DNA from: a virus
Lineage: Duplodnaviria; Heunggongvirae; Uroviricota; Caudoviricetes
Direction: 5' to 3' (one strand)
IMG/VR virus record: IMGVR_UViG_2541047787_000008
Length of the DNA stretch: 14,246 nt
Both the position numbers and the translations under genes were made by a program. Shown one piece after another: positions 4,715 to 14,246 of the stretch. The notes below the pieces were generated by a model that saw only the letters and a program-made list of their open reading frames with translations, was not told the DNA's origin and did not search any database. Each line of letters opens with the position of its first letter. Position 1 is the first letter of the stretch.

Positions 4715-4822
4715 AAATCAGCACGTACGAATTCAAACTCTGCCATAAAAGAACATATAAGTAATTTATTAACATATAGATATAGGTTATATTACAAATT
4801 GAAAAATTATTGGAGAGCAACA

Positions 4823-5689
4823 ATGAATCAAAATCCATTCTCATTCTATGACTTTCTTGGATATTTAATACCAGGTGGTTTTTTTATCCTATTAATGTAT
4901 TTCTGTGGTTTGACATTCGATCTAGATATTGTTATTGACTTAAGTGAATTGCTCAGAGGTCAAAGTCAAATCTTTGGCATTTTGAACTACGCTTCAATAG
5001 TTATTATATCTTATATAGCTGGACATTTTATTTCTATCACGTCAGCATTTTTTATCGAAAAATACATGAATAAAGAATTAGGATATCCTTCCAAATATCT
5101 ATTTAAAAAATTGATAGATACCTCAGAAAGCATTTGTAGCCCATCATGCGATGAGAGAAGCGCTGATAAAAAAACAAAAATAAAGAATCGCATAATCAAA
5201 TGCGTATTATGTCCAATAATACTATGGGATTTTATAACACAAAAACTATGTTATTCTCAATCTCTACCATTTCATTTAGCTAATACAACATGGTTAATGA
5301 TCAAAGAAGGTTATGAGAAAAAGTTCATAACAAATCGCCAATTATTACAAGATAAAAACGGACTTGATGATGATCTCTTCAGATTGGCATATCATTATGT
5401 TTATGAGTTTTCAAAACAACATCAAACAAAAATTCAAAACTATGTTGCATTATATGGTTTTTGCAGAAACATATGTTTAATCTTTATAATTTCATTTTGG
5501 GTATCAGTTCCAACCTTTATTTATCGATTATGTACTCATAGTGATTATCTTTATAGTTTACTTTCAATAATGCTTAGCTTTTTCTTCGTCTATGTTTTCT
5601 ATGTTGGTTTTGTTAAATTTTATAGAAGATATACTTTAGAAGTATTAATGGCATTTGCTGTACTTCAAAGTAACGACACTATTCGTTAA
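4823..5689 (+). CDS. AT-rich hypothetical membrane protein in the slot between the early-left genes and xis
   Basis: Preferred start ATG 4823 with GGAG 7 nt upstream (track start 4799). About 28-35% GC in two hand-counted 60-nt stretches. Two hydrophobic helices at the N-terminus and two at the C-terminus flank a hydrophilic Cys-containing middle (CSPSC ... CVLCP). No family recognised. Confidence 0.75.
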   Translation: MNQNPFSFYDFLGYLIPGGFFILLMYFCGLTFDLDIVIDLSELLRGQSQIFGILNYASIVIISYIAGHFISITSAFFIEKYMNKELGYPSKYLFKKLIDTSESICSPSCDERSADKKTKIKNRIIKCVLCPIILWDFITQKLCYSQSLPFHLANTTWLMIKEGYEKKFITNRQLLQDKNGLDDDLFRLAYHYVYEFSKQHQTKIQNYVALYGFCRNICLIFIISFWVSVPTFIYRLCTHSDYLYSLLSIMLSFFFVYVFYVGFVKFYRRYTLEVLMAFAVLQSNDTIR

Positions 5690-5730
5690 TAATGTTGCTC
5701 CCGTGTGCAGACGGGATAATGGAGAAACGT

Positions 5731-5937
5731 ATGCTGAACCTCGATTGTGTTCCTATCTCAACTTATTGCAAAGAAACTGGCGAAACTCCTGAAGCAATAA
5801 ACAAACGTGTACAGCGCGGTGTTTGGCGTGAAGGTGTTCAGGTTTTAAAGGTTGAAGGCGTTAAGGAGAGGTGGATTGATCTTAGTGAGGTTGCAAAATG
5901 GGCCAGACAAAACTGCTCAAACTACCGCGCGGCGTAA
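5731..5937 (+). CDS. xis: Excisionase-like protein (Xis), about 68 aa
   Basis: Small basic ORF immediately upstream of int and overlapping it by about 40 nt, as in lambda. Preferred start ATG 5731 with GGAGAAA upstream; the track ORF starts at 5692. Confidence 0.65.
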   Translation: MLNLDCVPISTYCKETGETPEAINKRVQRGVWREGVQVLKVEGVKERWIDLSEVAKWARQNCSNYRAA

Positions 5938-7073
5938 CAATCAGGAAACACCGCCAGGGAGAAACGATCAATATAACTTTCACCTACAAAGGAGTTAGAT
6001 GTCGTGAGCCGCTTTCCAATCTGGAAGTAACACCAAAGAACATTAAATACGCCGAGCGTACACTCGGCGAAATCCATAATAAGATCGAAAGGGGAACATT
6101 CATTTATGCAGAATATTTTCCCCGTTCTGCTCGTTTGAAAATTTTTGGTAATGCTGCTGCAGGCAAAACGGTAAAGATGTACCTGGACGAATATCTTGAA
6201 ATCTGCGAAACAAGAAAACTTTCACCCTCTACGATTGGTGGCTATAAAAAATGCCGTAGTGCGTTAGCCTCACTTCACATTTGCCCTGCAAGTGAATTAA
6301 CACCAGCAACCCTGAAAGCGTGGATTCAAAGCCAGAAAACAACCTTAAAAACCATTCGCAACCAGTTATCTTTCCTACGGTCAGCACTTGATGAAGCCGT
6401 GACCGATGGGGTACTTCAAATTAACCCCGTATCGTTAGTAACAGCTTCGCGCTACCAAAGTGATAAGTCAGAAGCAGAAAGCAGCTATGTGGTTGATCCG
6501 CTATCACCAGCAGAAGTTGATGCATTACTAGCAGCAGCCGGAAACAAACAATGGGAAAATCTGTTCCGGTTCGCCATACATACAGGCCTGCGTAGTTCTG
6601 AATTATGTGCCCTACGATGGCATGATATCGACTTTGTTGGAAAAACAGCCCATGTTCAGAGCGCAAGTGTTGTCGGAGTTATCAAAGGAACAAAGACAAA
6701 AGCCGGTACCCGTAAAGTTGAACTGACTGAAGAAGCAATGTTGGCGTTGATAAACCAGAAGCCATTTACATTCATGAAGGATGCTACTGTCTTTGAAGAT
6801 CCAAAGACCAATAAACCCTGGGCAAGTGCTGATGCAATTAGGAAAAAAGCATGGGTGCCAACATTGCGAAAAGCAGGTATTCGTTACAGAAACCCATATC
6901 AAACCAGGCATACATTCGCCACCAGCCATATCAGCCGTGGTGCGAACCTGTTCTGGCTTGCAGGCCAGATGGGCCATAAGGGACCAGAAATGCTATTTCG
7001 TCACTATGGCAGTTACCTTGCTGCATATGACGGACATACCGCTAAAAATACTAATGATACAAAACAGGCTTGA
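5898..7073 (+). CDS. int: Phage integrase, tyrosine recombinase family
   Basis: 391-aa ORF with GAGG 7 nt upstream of the ATG. Catalytic-domain motifs are visible: HTGLRSSELCALRW (Arg box), QTRHTFATSH, MGHKG, and the terminal FRHYGSY with the candidate catalytic Tyr. Confidence 0.9.
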   Translation: MGQTKLLKLPRGVTIRKHRQGETINITFTYKGVRCREPLSNLEVTPKNIKYAERTLGEIHNKIERGTFIYAEYFPRSARLKIFGNAAAGKTVKMYLDEYLEICETRKLSPSTIGGYKKCRSALASLHICPASELTPATLKAWIQSQKTTLKTIRNQLSFLRSALDEAVTDGVLQINPVSLVTASRYQSDKSEAESSYVVDPLSPAEVDALLAAAGNKQWENLFRFAIHTGLRSSELCALRWHDIDFVGKTAHVQSASVVGVIKGTKTKAGTRKVELTEEAMLALINQKPFTFMKDATVFEDPKTNKPWASADAIRKKAWVPTLRKAGIRYRNPYQTRHTFATSHISRGANLFWLAGQMGHKGPEMLFRHYGSYLAAYDGHTAKNTNDTKQA

Positions 7074-7266
7074 TGCTGCCCGAACAAATAGCCACTGAAA
7101 CCTGATAAAAAGTTATTTGTGATGTGGTTATGTTCGTCATATCCACATCATACATACTTAAACATAAGGCACTTTTTACCTTGCAAAAATTCGAACCAAG
7201 CATTTATGTTATAGGTGAACTTGGTACTCAGGCAGCTGTCCTAGTACTAGGAACACGCGGGAAATC

Positions 7267-7296
7267 TTGGAGCCAGTACGTAGATTATGGTAAAAT
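7267..7296 (+). promoter_or_regulatory. Candidate promoter for the downstream two-gene cassette
   Basis: TTGGAG at 7267..7272, 18-nt spacer, extended -10 TGgTAAAAT at 7288..7296. A 12-bp perfect palindrome cctagtactagg lies upstream at 7240..7251. Confidence 0.45.
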
Positions 7297-7368
7297 CCCG
7301 CGCCCCGTTCTGCGGGGAGCAATAAATGCCTCAAAAGGATACATTGGGGGGACTGAAAGGAGGTCTTT

Positions 7369-7617
7369 ATGTCAGAACTAGTCATGAAGATGTTTGGGCT
7401 GAATGATTTGGTCAAAGGCGGACAAGCCATGGCCGATCGTTTGAACAAATCTGGTGTTAAAAACATCAAGGTCGTAGGGCGTGGTGCAGTTATTGTAGAC
7501 CCATCTACTGACCCAGAAAAAATCACTCAGCTTAGGAAAGCAGCTAGAAAATTCGTCGAGCAGGATGCAAAAGCTGTTGCAGCCGCTAAAGCTAACTCAA
7601 TGGACAATGACGACTAA
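7369..7617 (+). CDS. Hypothetical small soluble protein (82 aa), first gene of the int-proximal cassette
   Basis: Strong AAGGAGG at 7357..7363, 5 nt before the ATG. Charged, Ala/Lys-rich C-terminal half. No family recognised. Confidence 0.75.
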   Translation: MSELVMKMFGLNDLVKGGQAMADRLNKSGVKNIKVVGRGAVIVDPSTDPEKITQLRKAARKFVEQDAKAVAAAKANSMDNDD

Positions 7618-7620
7618 CAA

Positions 7621-8439
7621 ATGTTTGCATTGCTGATCATTCCACTTTTAGTAAGTGGATCCTTACTGGTTACATCGCCCCATAACATCAAATTATTCTA
7701 TCGACTCCACCGTTACGACGGCCAGCTTCTCTATATGAAGGTGGCCACGTACGGTGTGTACTCGTTCATTGTTGCAGTCGTGCTGGCGTATGCAACCAAG
7801 TACTTTATACCAAGCCTTACACTGGTCACATGGGTATCACATCTTATTGATGGTAGTGCAGACCCTAAAGAAAACAGGATAACATCATGGCTCATCCTGC
7901 TATCAGTGGCGACTTGTGGAGTTGCTTTTATTTGGTTGCAGATATGCAAATTTCGTATGTTTGTGGCAGCCAAAACTATTAGTTCTGCATCCAATAATGC
8001 AATTTCTATCAATTTCGCAAAGCAACTAATCAGGCTTAATGAGTTGGAAAAACTGTTGTCTGATGGCTCACTTGGTCAGCTATTCTTTGATTCAGCGACT
8101 ACAAACAGACCGGTACTGATAAGCCTGAAATGCCGCAAAGTATATGTCGGAACAGTTAACATGATTAGTGAGCCAAACGAAAAACAAGGCCCTAACCTTG
8201 AAATTTCTATTAGCCCAATCATATCTGGTTACAGGGACAAGGACACACTAAGGGTCCTGTTTTCAAATGATTACAACGATCTTGATGGAGTTGATACCAG
8301 TATCATATTTCCATTAAGTGAGGTTTCGCATGCTTCTTGGTTCAATATGGATATACATGAAAAAGTAGACAATAACCGAGAGAAGAAACCAGAAACAAAC
8401 CGCAAGAAAAAACGTAAATATGGCAGGACTACGAATTGA
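7621..8439 (+). CDS. Hypothetical membrane-anchored protein (272 aa), second gene of the cassette
   Basis: ATG 3 nt after the stop of the 82-aa gene (TAA caa ATG), suggesting coupling. Three hydrophobic helices in the first ~110 residues, a soluble C-terminal domain, and a Lys/Arg-rich tail (REKKPETNRKKKRKYGRTTN). No family recognised. Confidence 0.75.
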   Translation: MFALLIIPLLVSGSLLVTSPHNIKLFYRLHRYDGQLLYMKVATYGVYSFIVAVVLAYATKYFIPSLTLVTWVSHLIDGSADPKENRITSWLILLSVATCGVAFIWLQICKFRMFVAAKTISSASNNAISINFAKQLIRLNELEKLLSDGSLGQLFFDSATTNRPVLISLKCRKVYVGTVNMISEPNEKQGPNLEISISPIISGYRDKDTLRVLFSNDYNDLDGVDTSIIFPLSEVSHASWFNMDIHEKVDNNREKKPETNRKKKRKYGRTTN

Positions 8440-8513
8440 TAGTAAAATATCCGCAAAAGAGCCGTAAGAACCAACTTTAAATTTTATTCGTTATAAATCA
8501 ACGCATTGCAAAT

Positions 8514-8542
8514 ATTCGGACACGGGTTCAACTCCCGCCAGC
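8514..8542 (+). other. Partial copy of the ssrA (tmRNA) 3' end: attachment-site core repeat
   Basis: attcggacACgggttcaactcccgccagc matches the E. coli tmRNA 3' end (as recalled: ...TTCGGACGCGGGTTCAACTCCCGCCAGCTCCACCA) with one mismatch, but lacks the terminal TCCACCA and the upstream tmRNA body. Followed by the 14-bp palindrome ccaatcatgattgg at 8542..8555. Confidence 0.6.
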
Positions 8543-8673
8543 CAATCATGATTGGACGGTATAAGGACAACACCAATAAAAACAGTAAGTTAGCAGTCTC
8601 AGCAGGACACCGACCAGACGGTGAAGAGACATAAAAGGATACGCAAAGGAGCCGCGGCTCCTGGTGACATGAA

Positions 8674-8695
8674 AGCCCACAGATGTGGGCTTTTT
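8674..8695. terminator. Terminator hairpin between the att region and the autotransporter 3' end
   Basis: Stem gcccac / gtgggc (8675..8690) followed by TTTTT at 8691..8695 on the plus strand. On the minus strand the same hairpin is followed by TTTCAT, just downstream of the autotransporter stop at 8705. Confidence 0.6.
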
Positions 8696-8704
8696 CGTTG
8701 ATGG

Positions 8705-11700
8705 TCAGAACGACCAGTTCACACCAGCTACCCCGTTCCACGGGGATTCCACACCGGCACCATGGCTATACCCCACCCCAAGATGCCCGCTTAACGTACT
8801 GCTGAATGAGGCTTTAATACCTGCCTGGTATATTCCACGTCTGCCCGACAAATCATTGACGAAATTACCGTCACTATTCACTTTCACCCGGTTATCATCG
8901 ACAAATTCTTTGCGCACAGCCGCCTTCAGCCACGGCTCAACTTCCATACCGTTCCCCAGACGCATGTTGTAACTCAGCGTTGCACCCAGTTCACGATATA
9001 AACTGCGGGTATCGACTGATTTCGATTCCATGCCATTGGATAAATGATATTCAGGGTTATCAGCGGTGAACCCCCGTTAACGATGCATACGGCGTCAGGT
9101 TCCAGTTACCATCGGTAAATCGCATCCCGGTTTCAATGTGACCGCCCAGCCCGTAGCTGCGATAACTGCCGTTGGCGGCTCCACCGCTGCCAACCGTGGA
9201 GTCGCGAGCTTCGGTACCTGCTAATACCAATAAATTACCGCCATTTTCCAGCAACATATTGGTCGCTAAATTGCCGGAAATGGAAAAAGTGCCGTACTGG
9301 TGAGTACCGCTGATTTCAATACCGTTAGCCGTGCTCGTCTGGAGAGCGGCACCGCTGTTCTGGACGATATCTGTCGCTTTGCCATTATCGTTAACTGTCA
9401 GCGTACCGCCTTCATTGATCTTTGTTTTTATTGCCTCTCCGTTAGCTGAAACTGTTTGTATTCCGCCGTCGTTAATCGTTGTCTCATTCGCCACCCCCTC
9501 GACGATTTGTTCGCCGCCGGTGAGCGTCGTGCCTGTCGCAGTGGCTTTTGTTTTGACGATCTCCCGTCCGCCCGTATTGACCTGTGTTTTGTCAGAAGAG
9601 GTGTCTGACTCCACGGTTAACACGCCGCCATTTGCCAGCAGGATATTGTTCGCCGCACCCTGCTCGATGCTGAACGCGACGCCATCCGCGCGTGTTCCTG
9701 TGACCCGCGTCGCCCTGGTGGTTGCAACCAAAGCGCCCTGGCTACTCTGCTGTATCCCCGTTGCGCTGCCTTTCTCCCGCACATCGAGTGTGCCGCCGTC
9801 ATTAAGCACCGAGTTTTCAGCCAGACCGCCCTCATTAACTACCTGTGAACACCCATTAATAATGGAACCTTCCGCTATCCCGTTTGCCATAATTTGTTGT
9901 AGGCCAGAGACGATATCGGTATTGATCGCCTTACCATAATTCTGAACGGTTTGTGTGCCGCCATTGATGTGCGTTTTGTCAGTTGACCCACCATCAACAA
10001 TTTGTTCACCACTTTCAATATTTGCCTCAGTGGCTAAACCATATACCGTTTGCTTGCCACCTTTGATATTTGCTTTATCAGAAGTGGCACTGGCATATAT
10101 TGTTTGGGTGCCAGCACTATTAAGTACAGTGCCAACATCTTTTCCATAAACATCCATTTTGCCGTTGGCATTAATAATCGTATCAACTGCCCGGGAACCA
10201 GTGACGACTGTTAATGAGCCAGCGTTTTCCAGCACTACATTTTTAGCTTCTGAATTCCTGATGTAGAAAGCATCACCATAACTGTTGGTTCCTTCGATAA
10301 GGGTTCCGGAAGTTGTGGAAGCAATTAATGCGCCGCCGGATTGTTGCTCAACATGCTTAGCCTCACCACCGTCCTGAACCTCCAGAACGCCACCATTATT
10401 AAGTCTGGTGGTATCTGTTTTAGCCTCCTTCTGGACAATCAGCTTACCGCCAGCATCAACGGTAGTATTTTTCGCCGAGGTTTTAGCCACTACCGTCAGT
10501 TCGCCGGTATTTTCCAGCACAACATAATTAGCCTCCCCTCCGGTAATAGTGAAGTGAGAGAGCTTGTTGTATCCTTCAATATCAGTCCCTGCGCCCGTGT
10601 TGGCAACTAAAGCACTGCCCGTCTCCTGGTTAACCCCATGTGCAATACCGCCGGTATAGACAATCAGCGAGCCTCCGGCGCTAATATTGCTGCCAATTGC
10701 CGTACCATCTTTCTCAACAACTTGCTGGCTCCCGGAGGATATAATTGTTGTGTCAGCTTTCCCACCGCTTTTGATATTTTGCGTTCCGCTGTTGATATTG
10801 GTGCCTGTGGCTATGCCATAATTATTAAGATTCTGTGTGCCACCATTAATTATGGTATTTGTCGCGTTTCCTGCAACATCCATAACCCCGCCATTATCTA
10901 TTCGGGTCGCATCAGCTTTAGCATTCGTTAAAACTGACATTGTTCCTTTATCTTTAATAATCGTCTTGTTTGCGGAATGAGATACTTCTAAATGGCCTCC
11001 ATTTTCCAGCAACACATTGTCTTCCACTTTATTGTGGATGGAGAATGCACCTTCACTATTCGTACCGCTCACCGTCGTACCGTTAGTGTTTGTTTTTAAA
11101 ATTGCACCATCGTGCTGGGTAACATTTGTTGCCGTACCACCACTAACATCAAGCACGCCACCGGAATAAACTTCAATAACATCCGAGGTGCTGGTGTTAT
11201 CAACAATTTGCGTGCCACCAGAATAGATCTGCGTAATTTTTGCCGTTGACTTACTATTCAGAGACTGAGTTCCGCCTTCAATCGTCGTGTCCAGCGCACG
11301 GCTCTCATATACTCTTTGCTCACCGCCATTTTTAATGGTTGTTGTTTCTACTGTGCTCTGTTCAACATACTGTCGACCACCATTTATGGTTGTGTTCGTT
11401 GCCAGACTTCCTTGTACTACGTCCTGAGAGCCAGACTTATTTATCGTTGTACCATCAGCATGCCCTTGAACTTTTACTATCTGGCTACCACCATCAATGA
11501 GTATTCCATTCGCACTCCCTCCCTCTACGCGTGAAGCACCGCCCTTAATTGTCGTTCCATTGCTGATACCCCCTTTATAAACGTCCTGATTGCCACTCTC
11601 GATTGTCGTACCTGTGGAAATACCCCCGTCATGAATTGACTGTCTGCCACCGTTAATGGTTGTATTATTAGCCTGCCCCACAAAATTGTTATGACTTCCT

Positions 11701-11969
11701 ATATCTTGATATCCACCAGATTCAATAAGACTTCCATTAGATACCCCGCCATGAACATTCTGCTGGTCATGGTTGATAATATGAGTGTTATTTGTTGTAC
11801 CTCGTTCATCCACTTTTTGGTTGCCATCTACAGTCTCATCGTTTACCACACCAATAACATCAGGAGTGAAGGCCGCCATACCGGGCGGGGCATATATCAA
11901 GGCAGATATCAATAAGGAAAGTACTGAGCGGCGACAATAATGGGGACTGGTCCTGTTCATAAATTTCAT
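8705..11969 (-). pseudogene. AIDA-I-type autotransporter adhesin, disrupted by a frameshift near the passenger/translocator junction
   Basis: The 1009-aa track ORF 9060..12089 carries a signal peptide (MKFMNRTSPHYCRRSVLSLLISALIYAPPGMAA) and passenger repeats; the track ORF 8705..9031 in another frame ends in the autotransporter C-terminal motif ...GVNWSF. The two frames join across a C5 run (plus strand 9071..9075). Start chosen at the signal-peptide Met (11969 or 11960), not the track start. Confidence 0.75.
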
Positions 11970-12298
11970 CCTCTGAAAAGTGAATACTGAGTAGCGTTTA
12001 AGCGACCTTAGCTCTGCTGCAACATCAGCCCACAGGCACCAGACCAGGGGATTCATCCTGAAGAGACAGCGCAAGTGTATTGTGTTCACCGCTCATCAAA
12101 GACATCATGATGAAATGATGATATTCCACATAAGAAAGAAGCATTTTTTAAACGCAGTGCGCTGAAGTATGGTTGGATAAAAAAGTCAATCTATTCAGGG
12201 AATACGGGGGTATTCTTTTCTTTCGACAATCAGGTCGTCGGCAAAATAAAATGATTTACATAATCGTTTCTGATGAATATCTTCTGCTCACATAAAAA

Positions 12299-12872: not shown

Positions 12873-14246
12873 TCATTGAAAACTGCTTTTAGAACTTGAT
12901 ACAACGGGACTAGTCACAACAGGACTATTCTCAACGGGATCATCCTCAGAGGAACTATCATCAAAGTCATCATCCATAAATAAAATATCATCGAATGGTG
13001 CCACGCCCGTGATGAGTTTTATTTTATTATTACGATCAGTCAAGACTCCACTTAAACCGTTTTCGCTCACAGGTTTTAATGATTTTTCATTACTCTTGTT
13101 GTAAGCAGGCGCATTAAAAATACACGGAGTATCAAGATCAAACAATGACGTTCCCCAGTTCACATATTGAATATCATAGTTACTGAAGTTCTGTCCAGAA
13201 AAGAAGCATCCCTTAAAATCCAATCCACCTAAATTATATAAACCATCCTCTTCTTTTTGGAGAGTAATGTTAATTTTGGCTATCTCCCGGACATCATCGC
13301 CATTTTTATATTTGAATACCGTTTCAAGATTTTCCCCACACAGTTTGACTTCTGGAAATAATTTGAAATCAAAGCCTATATTATTATGTATCAACGTAGA
13401 TGAACAAAAGATGGAGAAAGCTTGCAGTGCTGAATTATAGCTTTCGATTTTATCCTGAGGCTGCGCTCTTGGTAAAAACTCATAGCAACATTCATAAAAA
13501 TTAAGTAGAAACTCTGAAGACCTTCCATTTTTATCAAATAATATCCCCTTGAACTCATTCACAAACGCATCTTTTTTTTCTTGAATATCTATGGGGTGTT
13601 CCTTTGACTCTGACAAAGATGAAATCTCATCTATTTTGTTTTCATATGAATTACGTGATTCCATACAGACATTTGGCGGCGTTTCTAAAATAACACTACG
13701 CGTACTACTTGGCTTAAGTAAACCAACATGAAAATCACTTTTTCTTATATTATCGAAAAGGTTCTGTTCATTTCTTTTAGCGCATTCAAAAAACTGATCG
13801 GCATTATTTTTATTCGATAATTTTTTAGTTTCAGAAAACACATTTTCATTGTTTTCCAGCTTTAGTTTAATGAGAAGATTTTCCCAGACCTGCTTGCTTA
13901 AACATATTACGTCAGGCTCACCAGAACTAACTAACTCGTGATTATTATTAAAGTGTACGTTGAATACCTTTAAGTTATTTTCACCAACTTCATATTTAAT
14001 ACGTTTTAATTGTTCTCCAGCTCCCATAATGACAAAGGCGTTGCCTTCTTGATATATACATTCAGACATCATTTTTTGTAAAGTTTCAAGAGCACCGCGA
14101 TACGTCTCTGATGCAGCTTCCTTACAAATTAATTTTAAAATACTATGAGCTAGTAGCTCCATGTGTTTAGAAGATTTATTTTCATTATAACTTCCACTAC
14201 CCAAAACTGCGCTAGCGTTAAATCCGTTGCTTTTACTAACTAACAT
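12873..14246 (-). CDS. AT-rich hypothetical protein (at least 457 aa; N-terminus at or beyond the window edge)
   Basis: Long open frame on the minus strand reaching the window end. AT-rich coding sequence, acidic Ser/Asp-rich C-terminal tail. No family recognised with confidence. Confidence 0.65.
   Translation of the reverse strand: MLVSKSNGFNASAVLGSGSYNENKSSKHMELLAHSILKLICKEAASETYRGALETLQKMMSECIYQEGNAFVIMGAGEQLKRIKYEVGENNLKVFNVHFNNNHELVSSGEPDVICLSKQVWENLLIKLKLENNENVFSETKKLSNKNNADQFFECAKRNEQNLFDNIRKSDFHVGLLKPSSTRSVILETPPNVCMESRNSYENKIDEISSLSESKEHPIDIQEKKDAFVNEFKGILFDKNGRSSEFLLNFYECCYEFLPRAQPQDKIESYNSALQAFSIFCSSTLIHNNIGFDFKLFPEVKLCGENLETVFKYKNGDDVREIAKINITLQKEEDGLYNLGGLDFKGCFFSGQNFSNYDIQYVNWGTSLFDLDTPCIFNAPAYNKSNEKSLKPVSENGLSGVLTDRNNKIKLITGVAPFDDILFMDDDFDDSSSEDDPVENSPVVTSPVVSSSKSSFQ

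What the first reader, a model, noticed from the sequence alone, without database searches (positions are those of the whole stretch)
7240..8439. Promoter-equipped two-gene cassette (82-aa soluble + 272-aa membrane-anchored protein) between int and the att copy
Seen in sequence: palindrome cctagtactagg (7240..7251); candidate promoter with extended -10 (7267..7296); AAGGAGG before ATG 7369; the second ORF starts 3 nt after the first stops; protein 2 has three N-terminal hydrophobic helices, a soluble C-terminal domain and a strongly basic tail. Neither protein matches a family I recognise. Inference: the int-to-att interval at a prophage end is a recurrent site for anti-phage defence or superinfection-exclusion cargo, and a small cytoplasmic partner plus a membrane effector is a common layout for abortive-infection modules. 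This is the strongest candidate here for an undescribed system.
Basis: partly seen in the sequence, partly recalled or inferred. Interest (0 to 1): 0.75.

Follow-up and report, generated by a model that had tools for sequence, protein, structure and literature searches.

The report
Conserved mobile two-gene membrane cassette
Between the integrase and the attachment site of an E. coli prophage sits a real, strongly conserved two-gene unit (a small soluble protein plus a membrane protein with an Sm-like domain) that travels on phages, satellites and plasmids, sits in known anti-phage hotspots, and is most likely an undescribed phage-defence module, though nobody has tested it.

Summary
The cassette is real. 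orfA (7369-7617, 82 aa) and orfB (7621-8439, 272 aa) lie between int and a copy of the ssrA 3' end. They have a strong ribosome-binding site and an extended -10 promoter element that is invariant in eight diverged loci. The 12-nt palindrome is at chance level.

orfB has three membrane helices (predicted N-out, C-in). Its cytoplasmic C-terminal domain is predicted to have an Sm/LSm/Hfq/WYL-like fold. orfA is predicted as helix, beta-hairpin, helix.

Neither protein matches Pfam, NCBIfam, PADLOC or any solved structure by sequence. Both fall in PHROGs of unknown function.

orfB belongs to a large family: 2,853 clusters at 50% identity. In 52 of 54 lineages a small orfA-like gene abuts it upstream. 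No third gene is conserved.

The pair occurs at prophage int-att ends, in the P2 and P4 defence hotspots (next to IetAS, bSEFIR, TIR), on IncC plasmids and in chromosomal islets. A P2-type homologue scores as a 'predicted novel defense gene' in DefensePredictor but was not among the units that study tested.

Best reading: an undescribed, self-contained anti-phage module with a membrane effector. I put about 0.6 on any defence or exclusion role and about 0.4 on a regulated membrane-effector, abortive-type mechanism. Function remains inferred.

The parts
5692..5937 (+). excisionase (context; not part of the cassette)
   Evidence: phrog_2917 excisionase, E 8e-45.
5898..7073 (+). tyrosine integrase (context). 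Homology with other E. coli prophages ends near 7010.
   Evidence: Arm-DNA-bind_2 plus Phage_integrase domains. Window 6300-7009 is found in 742 genomes at 93-98% identity, and the match stops at query position 710.
7240..7251 (.). 12-nt perfect palindrome, judged to be chance
   Evidence: Five such palindromes in the window against 4.0 +/- 2.0 in shuffles. Not conserved in phiES15.
7267..7296 (+). candidate sigma-70 promoter with an extended -10 (TTGGAG, 18 nt, TGgTAAAAT)
   Evidence: Read directly from the sequence. The only TGnTAWAAT in the window. The TG and -10 core are invariant in 8 diverged loci. Below the threshold of the consensus scan.
7356..7363 (+). Shine-Dalgarno sequence AAAGGAGG for orfA
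   Evidence: Read from the sequence. GGAGG is invariant in 8 loci.
7369..7617 (+). orfA: 82-aa soluble, basic (pI 9.4) protein, predicted as helix, beta-hairpin, helix
   Evidence: phrog_35771, E 1e-45. AF2 pLDDT 70 with H3-28, E33-36, E40-43, H49-81. dN/dS about 0.06. Homologues abut orfB homologues in 52 of 54 lineages.
7621..8439 (+). orfB: 272-aa inner-membrane protein with 3 TM helices, a conserved cytoplasmic loop LHRYDGQLLYMK, a helical linker, an Sm-like beta-barrel (residues ~150-241) and a basic tail
8511..8600 (+). att copy: duplicate of the 3' end of ssrA (tmRNA), marking the prophage end
   Evidence: Matches annotated ssrA in other E. coli genomes at 91.6-96% identity. Rfam tmRNA fragment at 8523-8537.

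Best explanation
orfA-orfB is a self-contained, horizontally mobile two-gene module. It is expressed from its own extended -10 promoter in the lysogen, and its job is to protect the host, and so the prophage, against other phages.

Shown here: OrfB is an integral inner-membrane protein. It has three helices, with the N-terminus predicted outside and the C-terminus inside. Its cytoplasmic C-terminal domain is predicted to have the Sm/LSm/Hfq/WYL fold. OrfA is a small soluble protein that always accompanies OrfB and diverges in step with it.

Inferred: Sm-like domains typically assemble into hexameric to octameric rings and bind nucleic acids or nucleotides. OrfB probably forms a ring-shaped oligomer that gathers 18-24 membrane helices. 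OrfA, made in a fixed ratio by translational coupling, keeps this assembly closed or supplies the trigger-sensing surface. On infection, a phage-derived cue would release or rearrange OrfA and open OrfB. The cue could be a nucleic acid end, a nucleotide or a phage protein that binds the conserved EPxE / SGYRDKD loops or the LHRYDGQ loop. Opening would dissipate the membrane potential and abort the infection.

My probability for any defence or exclusion role is about 0.6. My probability for this regulated membrane-effector (abortive-type) mechanism is about 0.4.
For: Gene reality and coupling:
- Strong ribosome-binding site, a 3-nt gap between the genes, and no separate ribosome-binding site for orfB.
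- dN/dS about 0.06. The identities of orfA and orfB to their homologues track each other: 80/78, 82/79, 79/81 and 65/65%.

Conserved unit:
- 52 of 54 orfB lineages (clusters at 60% identity or less) have an abutting small same-strand ORF. 43 of these match the OrfA profile. Only 29% of control ORFs have such a neighbour.
- This holds from Enterobacterales to Vibrio, Pseudomonas, Legionella, Lautropia, Asticcacaulis and Acidobacteria.
- No third gene is conserved.

Mobility and hotspot residence:
- Between int and attP in phage phiES15, and at prophage ends in Klebsiella.
- In the P2 hotspot between gpA/DinI and the portal gene, in Klebsiella phage ST15-OXA48phi14.1, Salmonella SEN4/5 and E. 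coli O157:H16.
- In a P4-like satellite next to IetAS, and on IncC plasmids.
- 224 hits in viral contigs.
- Known defence genes lie within two large ORFs of the pair in representative loci: IetAS x2, bSEFIR, CBASS cyclase plus NucC, AbiLi/ii, AriA, MzaA.
- Rousset 2022 Table S5 lists the P2-type pair with changing neighbours: SieB, PIN_12 and DUF262.

Independent prediction:
- WP_000212611.1 has DefensePredictor log-odds 5.1, above that study's stringent cut-off of 4.

Architecture:
- 3 TM helices plus an Sm-like barrel.

Variable slot:
- The same integrase is in 742 genomes and the pair in only 17. Other cargo occupies the slot elsewhere.
Against: - No experiment exists. No homologue has been tested in the papers I could read.
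- There is no match to any of 5,027 PADLOC models.
- Many homologues sit beside ordinary chromosomal genes rather than in defence islands. Only roughly a fifth to a quarter of representative loci have a PADLOC-family neighbour, a figure estimated from aggregate counts.
- The alternative cargo in the same int-att slot is not known defence either.
- Oligomerisation, ligand binding and pore formation are inferred from fold analogy on a predicted model (pTM 0.53). The OrfA model is only moderately confident (pLDDT 70).
- OrfA is basic, unlike typical labile acidic antitoxins.
Confidence: 0.4

Rival explanations
1. Superinfection exclusion at the entry step. OrfB sits at the inner membrane and blocks or traps the incoming phage genome or its injection machinery. 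It could do this, for example, with an Sm/WYL-like ring binding the DNA end or the tape-measure protein. The cell is not killed, and OrfA acts as a cofactor.
For: - Membrane location, with a cytoplasmic domain of a nucleic-acid-binding fold and a lysine/arginine-rich tail.
- Prophage-end and P2-hotspot locations are typical of exclusion genes.
- Membrane proteins that act during injection are established knowledge: HK97 gp15, P22 SieA, T4 Imm, and SNIPE (PMC13190303).
Against: - There is no similarity to any known exclusion protein.
- The basic tail is not conserved across the family.
- Presence in non-phage contexts (IncC plasmids, chromosomal islets, Acidobacteria) argues for a general rather than a phage-specific entry block.
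Confidence: 0.2
2. A toxin-antitoxin-like addiction module. OrfB is a membrane toxin and OrfA its antidote. The module's main role is to stabilise the mobile element that carries it, not to stop phages.
For: - The layout is a small upstream gene and a larger downstream gene with tight coupling.
- It is carried on plasmids, prophages and satellites.
- The two genes diverge at matched rates.
Against: - OrfA is basic and has no DNA-binding fold typical of type II antitoxins.
- There is no match to a TA family in Pfam, NCBIfam or PADLOC.
- Residence in the P2 and P4 hotspots, and the DefensePredictor score, point to defence.
- The two roles are not mutually exclusive.
Confidence: 0.12
3. Lysogenic-conversion cargo unrelated to genetic conflict. 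It would be a membrane protein that changes host physiology (ion or osmotic homeostasis, envelope stress, signalling), together with a small chaperone-like partner.
For: - Many homologues lie next to ordinary metabolic or transport genes.
- The layout of 3 TM helices plus an Sm-like domain loosely recalls MscS-type channels (my own knowledge of MscS structure).
- No defence phenotype is known.
Against: - No sequence, profile or full-length fold match to MscS or any transporter.
- Patchy distribution: 17 and 62 of 5,426 E. coli genomes.
- Repeated presence in defence hotspots, and rapid swapping at the slot.
Confidence: 0.13
4. OrfB is a signal-activated effector of neighbouring TIR or SEFIR proteins, a Thoeris-like arrangement. 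The pair would then be only part of a larger system.
For: - In two P2-type loci the pair lies directly upstream of a TIR or bSEFIR protein.
- Sm/WYL-like domains can bind nucleotides (PMC11880434, listed).
Against: - The window, phiES15, SEN4/5, Vibrio, P4-type and plasmid loci have no TIR gene.
- Rousset Table S5 shows the same pair with SieB, PIN_12 or DUF262 instead.
- bSEFIR is a single-gene system in PADLOC.
Confidence: 0.05

Closest known systems
Lambda RexAB (prophage-encoded abortive infection)
   Same: A two-gene unit expressed from a prophage in the lysogen. One product is soluble and one is an integral membrane protein. The proposed outcome is loss of membrane potential.
   Different: No sequence or fold relationship (PADLOC negative). 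In Rex the large protein is soluble and the small one is the 4-TM channel, whereas here the sizes are reversed. Rex lies in the immunity region, not at int-att.
TM-plus-beta-barrel effectors of CBASS and Pycsar (Cap15 / S_2TMBeta type)
   Same: N-terminal membrane helices followed by a small cytoplasmic beta-barrel that senses a ligand. They act by disrupting the membrane.
   Different: No cyclase partner. The barrel here is a five-strand Sm-like fold preceded by a helix, not the Cap15 barrel. No PADLOC match.
Sm / LSm / Hfq proteins and WYL-domain defence regulators (BrxR, CapW, DriD, PafBC)
   Different: Those proteins are soluble and are either rings of the domain alone or HTH-WYL transcription factors. 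None is membrane-anchored. No Pfam LSM, Hfq or WYL match even at E<=1.
MscS mechanosensitive channel
   Same: Overall layout of three membrane helices followed by an Sm-like beta domain, with N-out / C-in topology (my own knowledge of MscS).
Rst_2TM_1TM_TIR of P2-like phage AC1 (Rousset et al. 2022)
   Same: Same P2 hotspot, membrane proteins, and a TIR gene next to some homologues.
   Different: The three AC1 proteins, read from Table S2A, are unrelated in sequence and size (126, 186 and 331 aa). Most OrfAB loci have no TIR.
DefensePredictor DS-13 (two TM-containing hypothetical proteins)
   Same: A validated two-gene E. coli system made of small proteins with membrane helices.
   Different: The sequences WP_000387046 and WP_001022716 are unrelated to OrfA and OrfB.

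Membership tests
PHROG families 35771 (OrfA) and 3630 (OrfB) | Full-length profile match | tested here: met
   E 1.1e-45 over residues 1-82 of 82, and E 5.5e-82 over 1-269 of 274. Both families are of unknown function.
Any known or candidate defence system in PADLOC-DB 2.0.0 | Profile match of either protein to a system component | tested here: not met
   No hit at E<=1 for OrfA or OrfB, or for the P2-type homologues at E<=0.01. Newer DefenseFinder and PADLOC releases could not be run.
Sm-like fold (structural superfamily) | An N-terminal helix followed by five strongly bent antiparallel strands | tested here: met
Sm-like fold (structural superfamily) | Ring oligomer (hexamer to octamer) and RNA, DNA or nucleotide binding | not testable with these tools
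   No multimer prediction or biochemistry was available.
LSM / Hfq / WYL sequence families (Pfam) | Profile match including the Sm1/Sm2 or W-Y-L motifs | tested here: not met
   No Pfam family at E<=1. No PDB sequence relative.
MscS channel family | Sequence or profile similarity to MS_channel (TM3 plus beta domain) | tested here: not met
   No Pfam hit. hhalign probability 0.1%. Not among the fold hits shown.
Cargo of the P2 / P4 defence hotspots (Rousset et al. 2022) | Located between gpA/DinI and the portal gene in P2-like phages, or in the P4 hotspot near int and AlpA | tested here: met
   Met for homologues, not for the window copy: L004, L005 and L173, P4-like L013-15 next to IetAS, and listed in Table S5. 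The window copy lies in a different slot, int-att of a lambdoid prophage.
Anti-phage defence system (functional class) | Reduces phage plaquing or propagation when expressed | not testable with these tools
   Only indirect evidence: context, plus DefensePredictor log-odds 5.1 for WP_000212611.1, which is not among the 118 tested units.
Type II toxin-antitoxin module | A toxic product neutralised by the upstream gene product; an antitoxin with a DNA-binding fold | tested here: inconclusive
   The gene order and coupling fit. No TA family match. The OrfA fold has no informative neighbour. Toxicity was not tested.
Rst_2TM_1TM_TIR | Homology to the three AC1 proteins and presence of a TIR partner | tested here: not met
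   The AC1 sequences read from Table S2A show no resemblance by eye, in sequence or in size. There is no TIR gene in the window.

The most novel reading that the evidence does not exclude
OrfB defines a new class of immune sensor-effector. In this reading a membrane-anchored Sm/WYL-like ring detects a nucleic-acid or nucleotide cue of infection directly at the inner membrane and converts it into opening of its own transmembrane bundle. OrfA acts as a stoichiometric lid. This would make it a widespread, minimal, two-gene immune channel with no relative among known systems.
Probability: 0.2. Interest if true: 0.8.

Novelty: new variant of a known kind. Interest (0 to 1): 0.6.

Why it matters
If it is active, this would add a very compact (about 1.1 kb) and very widespread system to the anti-phage repertoire. 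The family has 2,853 clusters at 50% identity, from Proteobacteria to Acidobacteria. Its architecture, a membrane anchor joined to an Sm-like domain, has not been described for an immune effector. It would also show that the Sm/WYL fold, so far known in defence only as a soluble regulator, can be wired directly to the membrane. On the practical side, it would explain part of the 'hypothetical' cargo that fills the P2, P4 and int-att hotspots, and it would give current detection tools a family they now miss.

Tried and rejected
- Palindrome as an operator: rejected. Its frequency is at chance level and it is not conserved.
- Consensus promoter scan: did not find the site. I kept the site because of extended -10 conservation.
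- 5' UTR RNA element: Rfam found nothing, the fold z-score was -1.3, and RNAalifold gave no consensus. Dropped.
- Membership in Rst_2TM_1TM_TIR: suspected because of TIR neighbours, rejected after reading the AC1 protein sequences.
- Identity with DS-13 of DefensePredictor: rejected.
- Identity with the new P4 systems Crouga, Bandua, Aernus, Toga, Reve and Hailong: rejected from their descriptions.
- MscS relationship: rejected at the sequence and fold level.
- OrfA fold search: only generic helical hairpins.
- Profile search of solved structures: nothing.
- AFDB Foldseek library: unavailable.
- Per-locus defence tallies: the tool returns only aggregate counts, so the fraction of loci with defence neighbours is approximate.
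- Accession-number searches of the literature: no hits in main texts.
- Brenes & Laub 2025: not held in the library.

Full report
**Where the window comes from**

The window is the right end of a lambdoid E. coli prophage. It carries:
- a cII-like gene, an S24 cI-type repressor and yfdP/Q/R;
- an excisionase (5692-5937) and a tyrosine integrase (5898-7073);
- the two genes of the finding;
- a duplicate of the ssrA 3' end at 8511-8600.

Beyond that lie a disrupted AIDA-type autotransporter and a DUF5507/DUF5508 gene.

**The observation**

The palindrome at 7240-7251 is not meaningful. The window has five perfect 12-nt palindromes against 4.0 +/- 2.0 in shuffles, and phage phiES15 lacks it.

The promoter reads TTGGAG, 18 nt, TGgTAAAAT (7267-7296). 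The consensus scan missed it because the -35 matches only three of six bases. Two things speak for it. It is the only TGnTAWAAT in the window. And the T..TGnTA...T core and the GGAGG ribosome-binding site are invariant across eight loci whose proteins are only 65-80% identical, while the DNA around them has diverged.

orfB starts 3 nt after the orfA stop codon and has no ribosome-binding site of its own, which suggests translational coupling.

Both ORFs are under strong purifying selection. dN is 0.10-0.28 with synonymous sites saturated, giving dN/dS of about 0.06 where it can be calculated. The two genes also diverge in step.

**The proteins**

OrfB:
- It has three hydrophobic segments. The loop charges (+4/-1 for residues 19-40, +1/-3 for 63-85) indicate an N-out, C-in topology with the C-terminal domain in the cytoplasm.
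- The family alignment shows three conserved blocks: the N-terminal helix (MFALLIIPLLVSG), the first cytoplasmic loop (LHRYDGQLLYMK, the most conserved stretch) and the C-terminal domain (RKVYVG...EPxE...ISI.P..SGYRDKD).
- The basic tail is variable.
- AlphaFold2 with a 68-sequence alignment gave pLDDT 80.
- No solved structure matches the full-length architecture.
- An MscS-like relationship, which the layout suggests, finds no support.

OrfA:
- It is soluble and basic. It is predicted at moderate confidence as helix, hairpin, helix.
- It has no informative structural neighbour.

Neither protein matches Pfam, NCBIfam, PADLOC or PDB sequences. Both belong to PHROGs of unknown function.

**The family and the pair**

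- A word-indexed search found 104 OrfB clusters, all labelled hypothetical.
- An exhaustive profile search found 2,853 representatives at E<=0.001 and 1,798 at E<=1e-10. The 150 listed run from 152 to 354 residues, most of them 240-340, and none of them shows a fused extra domain.
- I fetched 157 further loci from genomes and viral contigs.
- In 52 of 54 lineages (clusters at 60% identity or less) a small ORF on the same strand abuts orfB. 43 of these match an OrfA profile at E<0.001. The two exceptions are ORF-calling artefacts. Only 29% of control ORFs have such a neighbour.
- The small proteins share three elements: an N-terminal hydrophobic or amphipathic motif, a V-x-G-x-G-x-V hairpin with one nearly invariant glycine, and a following helix.
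- No third gene is conserved. Neighbours range from gpA and integrases to ordinary metabolic genes.

**Context**

The same pair lies in all of these settings:
- between int and attP in Cronobacter phage phiES15;
- at prophage ends in Klebsiella;
- in the P2 hotspot between gpA/DinI and the portal gene, in Klebsiella phage ST15-OXA48phi14.1 (next to bSEFIR), Salmonella SEN4/5 and E. coli O157:H16 (next to a TIR protein);
- in a P4-like satellite next to IetAS;
- on IncC conjugative plasmids;
- in a Vibrio chromosomal islet.

Among the two nearest large ORFs on each side of the 54 representative loci, PADLOC families include IetAS (twice), bSEFIR, a CBASS cyclase with NucC, AbiLi/ii, AriA and MzaA.

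In E. coli the window type is in 17 of 5,426 complete genomes, and the P2 type in 62.

The integrase itself is in 742 genomes. Its homology stops near 7010, inside the last codons of int, and other cargo fills the slot in UTI89 and AVS0171. That alternative cargo is not known defence either.

**Literature**

- Rousset et al. 2022 list the P2-type pair (WP_000094764 plus WP_000212611) as 'hypothetical' in the P2 hotspot, with changing neighbours: SieB, PIN_12 and DUF262/DUF1524. The pair is not among the systems in the part of Table S2 that I read, and these accessions occur nowhere in that table.
- I suspected the validated AC1 '2TM + 1TM + TIR' system because of the TIR neighbours, but it is made of unrelated proteins.
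- DefensePredictor lists WP_000212611.1 as a 'predicted novel defense gene' with log-odds 5.1, above its stringent cut-off of 4. It is absent from the table of 118 tested units.
- That study's DS-13 is unrelated.
- The new P4 systems of the 2026 NAR study do not fit either.
- Text searches for the accession numbers, the PHROG ids, or Sm-like domains in anti-phage effectors found nothing relevant.
- Brenes & Laub 2025 could not be read.

**Interpretation**

The following is shown:
- a real, promoter-equipped, translationally coupled two-gene unit;
- extreme conservation of the pairing;
- carriage by phages, satellites and plasmids;
- recurrent residence in experimentally defined defence hotspots;
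- a membrane protein with a predicted cytoplasmic Sm-like domain.

The following is inferred:
- that the unit defends against phages;
- that OrfB oligomerises as Sm-like domains usually do;
- that OrfA restrains or informs OrfB;
- that activation compromises the membrane.

My probabilities:
- about 0.6 on a defence or exclusion role of any kind;
- about 0.4 on the regulated membrane-effector (abortive) mechanism;
- 0.2 on an entry block;
- about 0.12 on a pure addiction module;
- about 0.13 on unrelated lysogenic conversion;
- 0.05 on a TIR-dependent effector.

**Novelty and score**

The kind of thing is familiar: a small defence-like cassette in a mobile-element cargo slot, with a membrane component. 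The protein families and the membrane-anchored Sm-like architecture are not described in anything I could search, and current detection models miss them. I rate it a new variant of a known kind and give it interest 0.6. It is a well-supported, widespread candidate, but one of many untested candidates in a crowded field.

Noticed in passing
window 4799-5689 (+): A 296-aa multi-pass membrane protein at 27-31% GC, against about 45% in the surrounding DNA. It matches phrog_12528 and has weak hits to the Cas13b accessory protein Csx27 (PADLOC E 1.4e-5; NCBIfam E 0.02). It sits between yfdR and xis. Two small hypothetical genes replace it in strains HS13-1 and AVS0171, and it is present in UTI89. 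This is a second variable cargo slot in the same prophage. It has no similarity to DefensePredictor DS-40.
   Followed up: partly
window ~7010 (inside int, 63 nt before its stop at 7073): Homology with the integrase of 742 other E. coli genomes ends here, not at the stop codon. The junction where cargo is exchanged therefore lies within the 3' end of int, and the last ~21 residues of the integrase travel with the cargo.
   Followed up: partly
L174 5263-7133 (UTI89), L175 5313-6092 (AVS0171): The same int-att slot holds other uncharacterised cargo. UTI89 has three minus-strand genes, including a STAS-like protein. AVS0171 has a 259-aa hypothetical protein. None matches PADLOC.
   Followed up: partly
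window 8705-9031 and 9060-12089 (-): An AIDA-type autotransporter split into a beta-domain fragment and a 1,009-aa passenger with 12 AIDA repeats. It appears disrupted. It lies just outside the prophage end.
   Followed up: no
window 12873-14246 (-): A low-GC gene encoding a DUF5507 plus DUF5508 protein of unknown function (E 5e-109 and 1e-177).
   Followed up: no
window 8672-8695 (+): By eye there is a good intrinsic-terminator shape: AAAGCCCAC, loop agat, GTGGGCTTT, then T-rich sequence. It lies about 230 nt after orfB and beyond the att copy. The scan did not list it. It could end the orfAB transcript, or belong to the old ssrA flank.
   Followed up: no
window 7298-7350 and the matching stretch in L002, L016, L099, L108-L110: Most of the eight diverged loci have a GC-rich hairpin straight after the -10, and a second CCTCAAA...TTTGAGG-type hairpin before the ribosome-binding site.
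   Followed up: partly
L176 4791-5789 (Salmonella IncC plasmid pSTY1-2010K-1587): A 68-aa plus 262-aa version of the pair sits on conjugative IncC plasmids, beside a RecD-like helicase and a mercury-resistance transposon. 26 of the 29 plasmid hits are from Salmonella.
   Followed up: partly
L004 4853-5062; L067, L069, L080 just downstream of the pair: A small basic ORF (consensus ...RIV..ARQ.RAF.Y.MQVHEN...KRAGVAGIRAR) recurs immediately downstream of the P2-type pairs. It is probably a conserved P2 backbone gene rather than part of the system.
   Followed up: no
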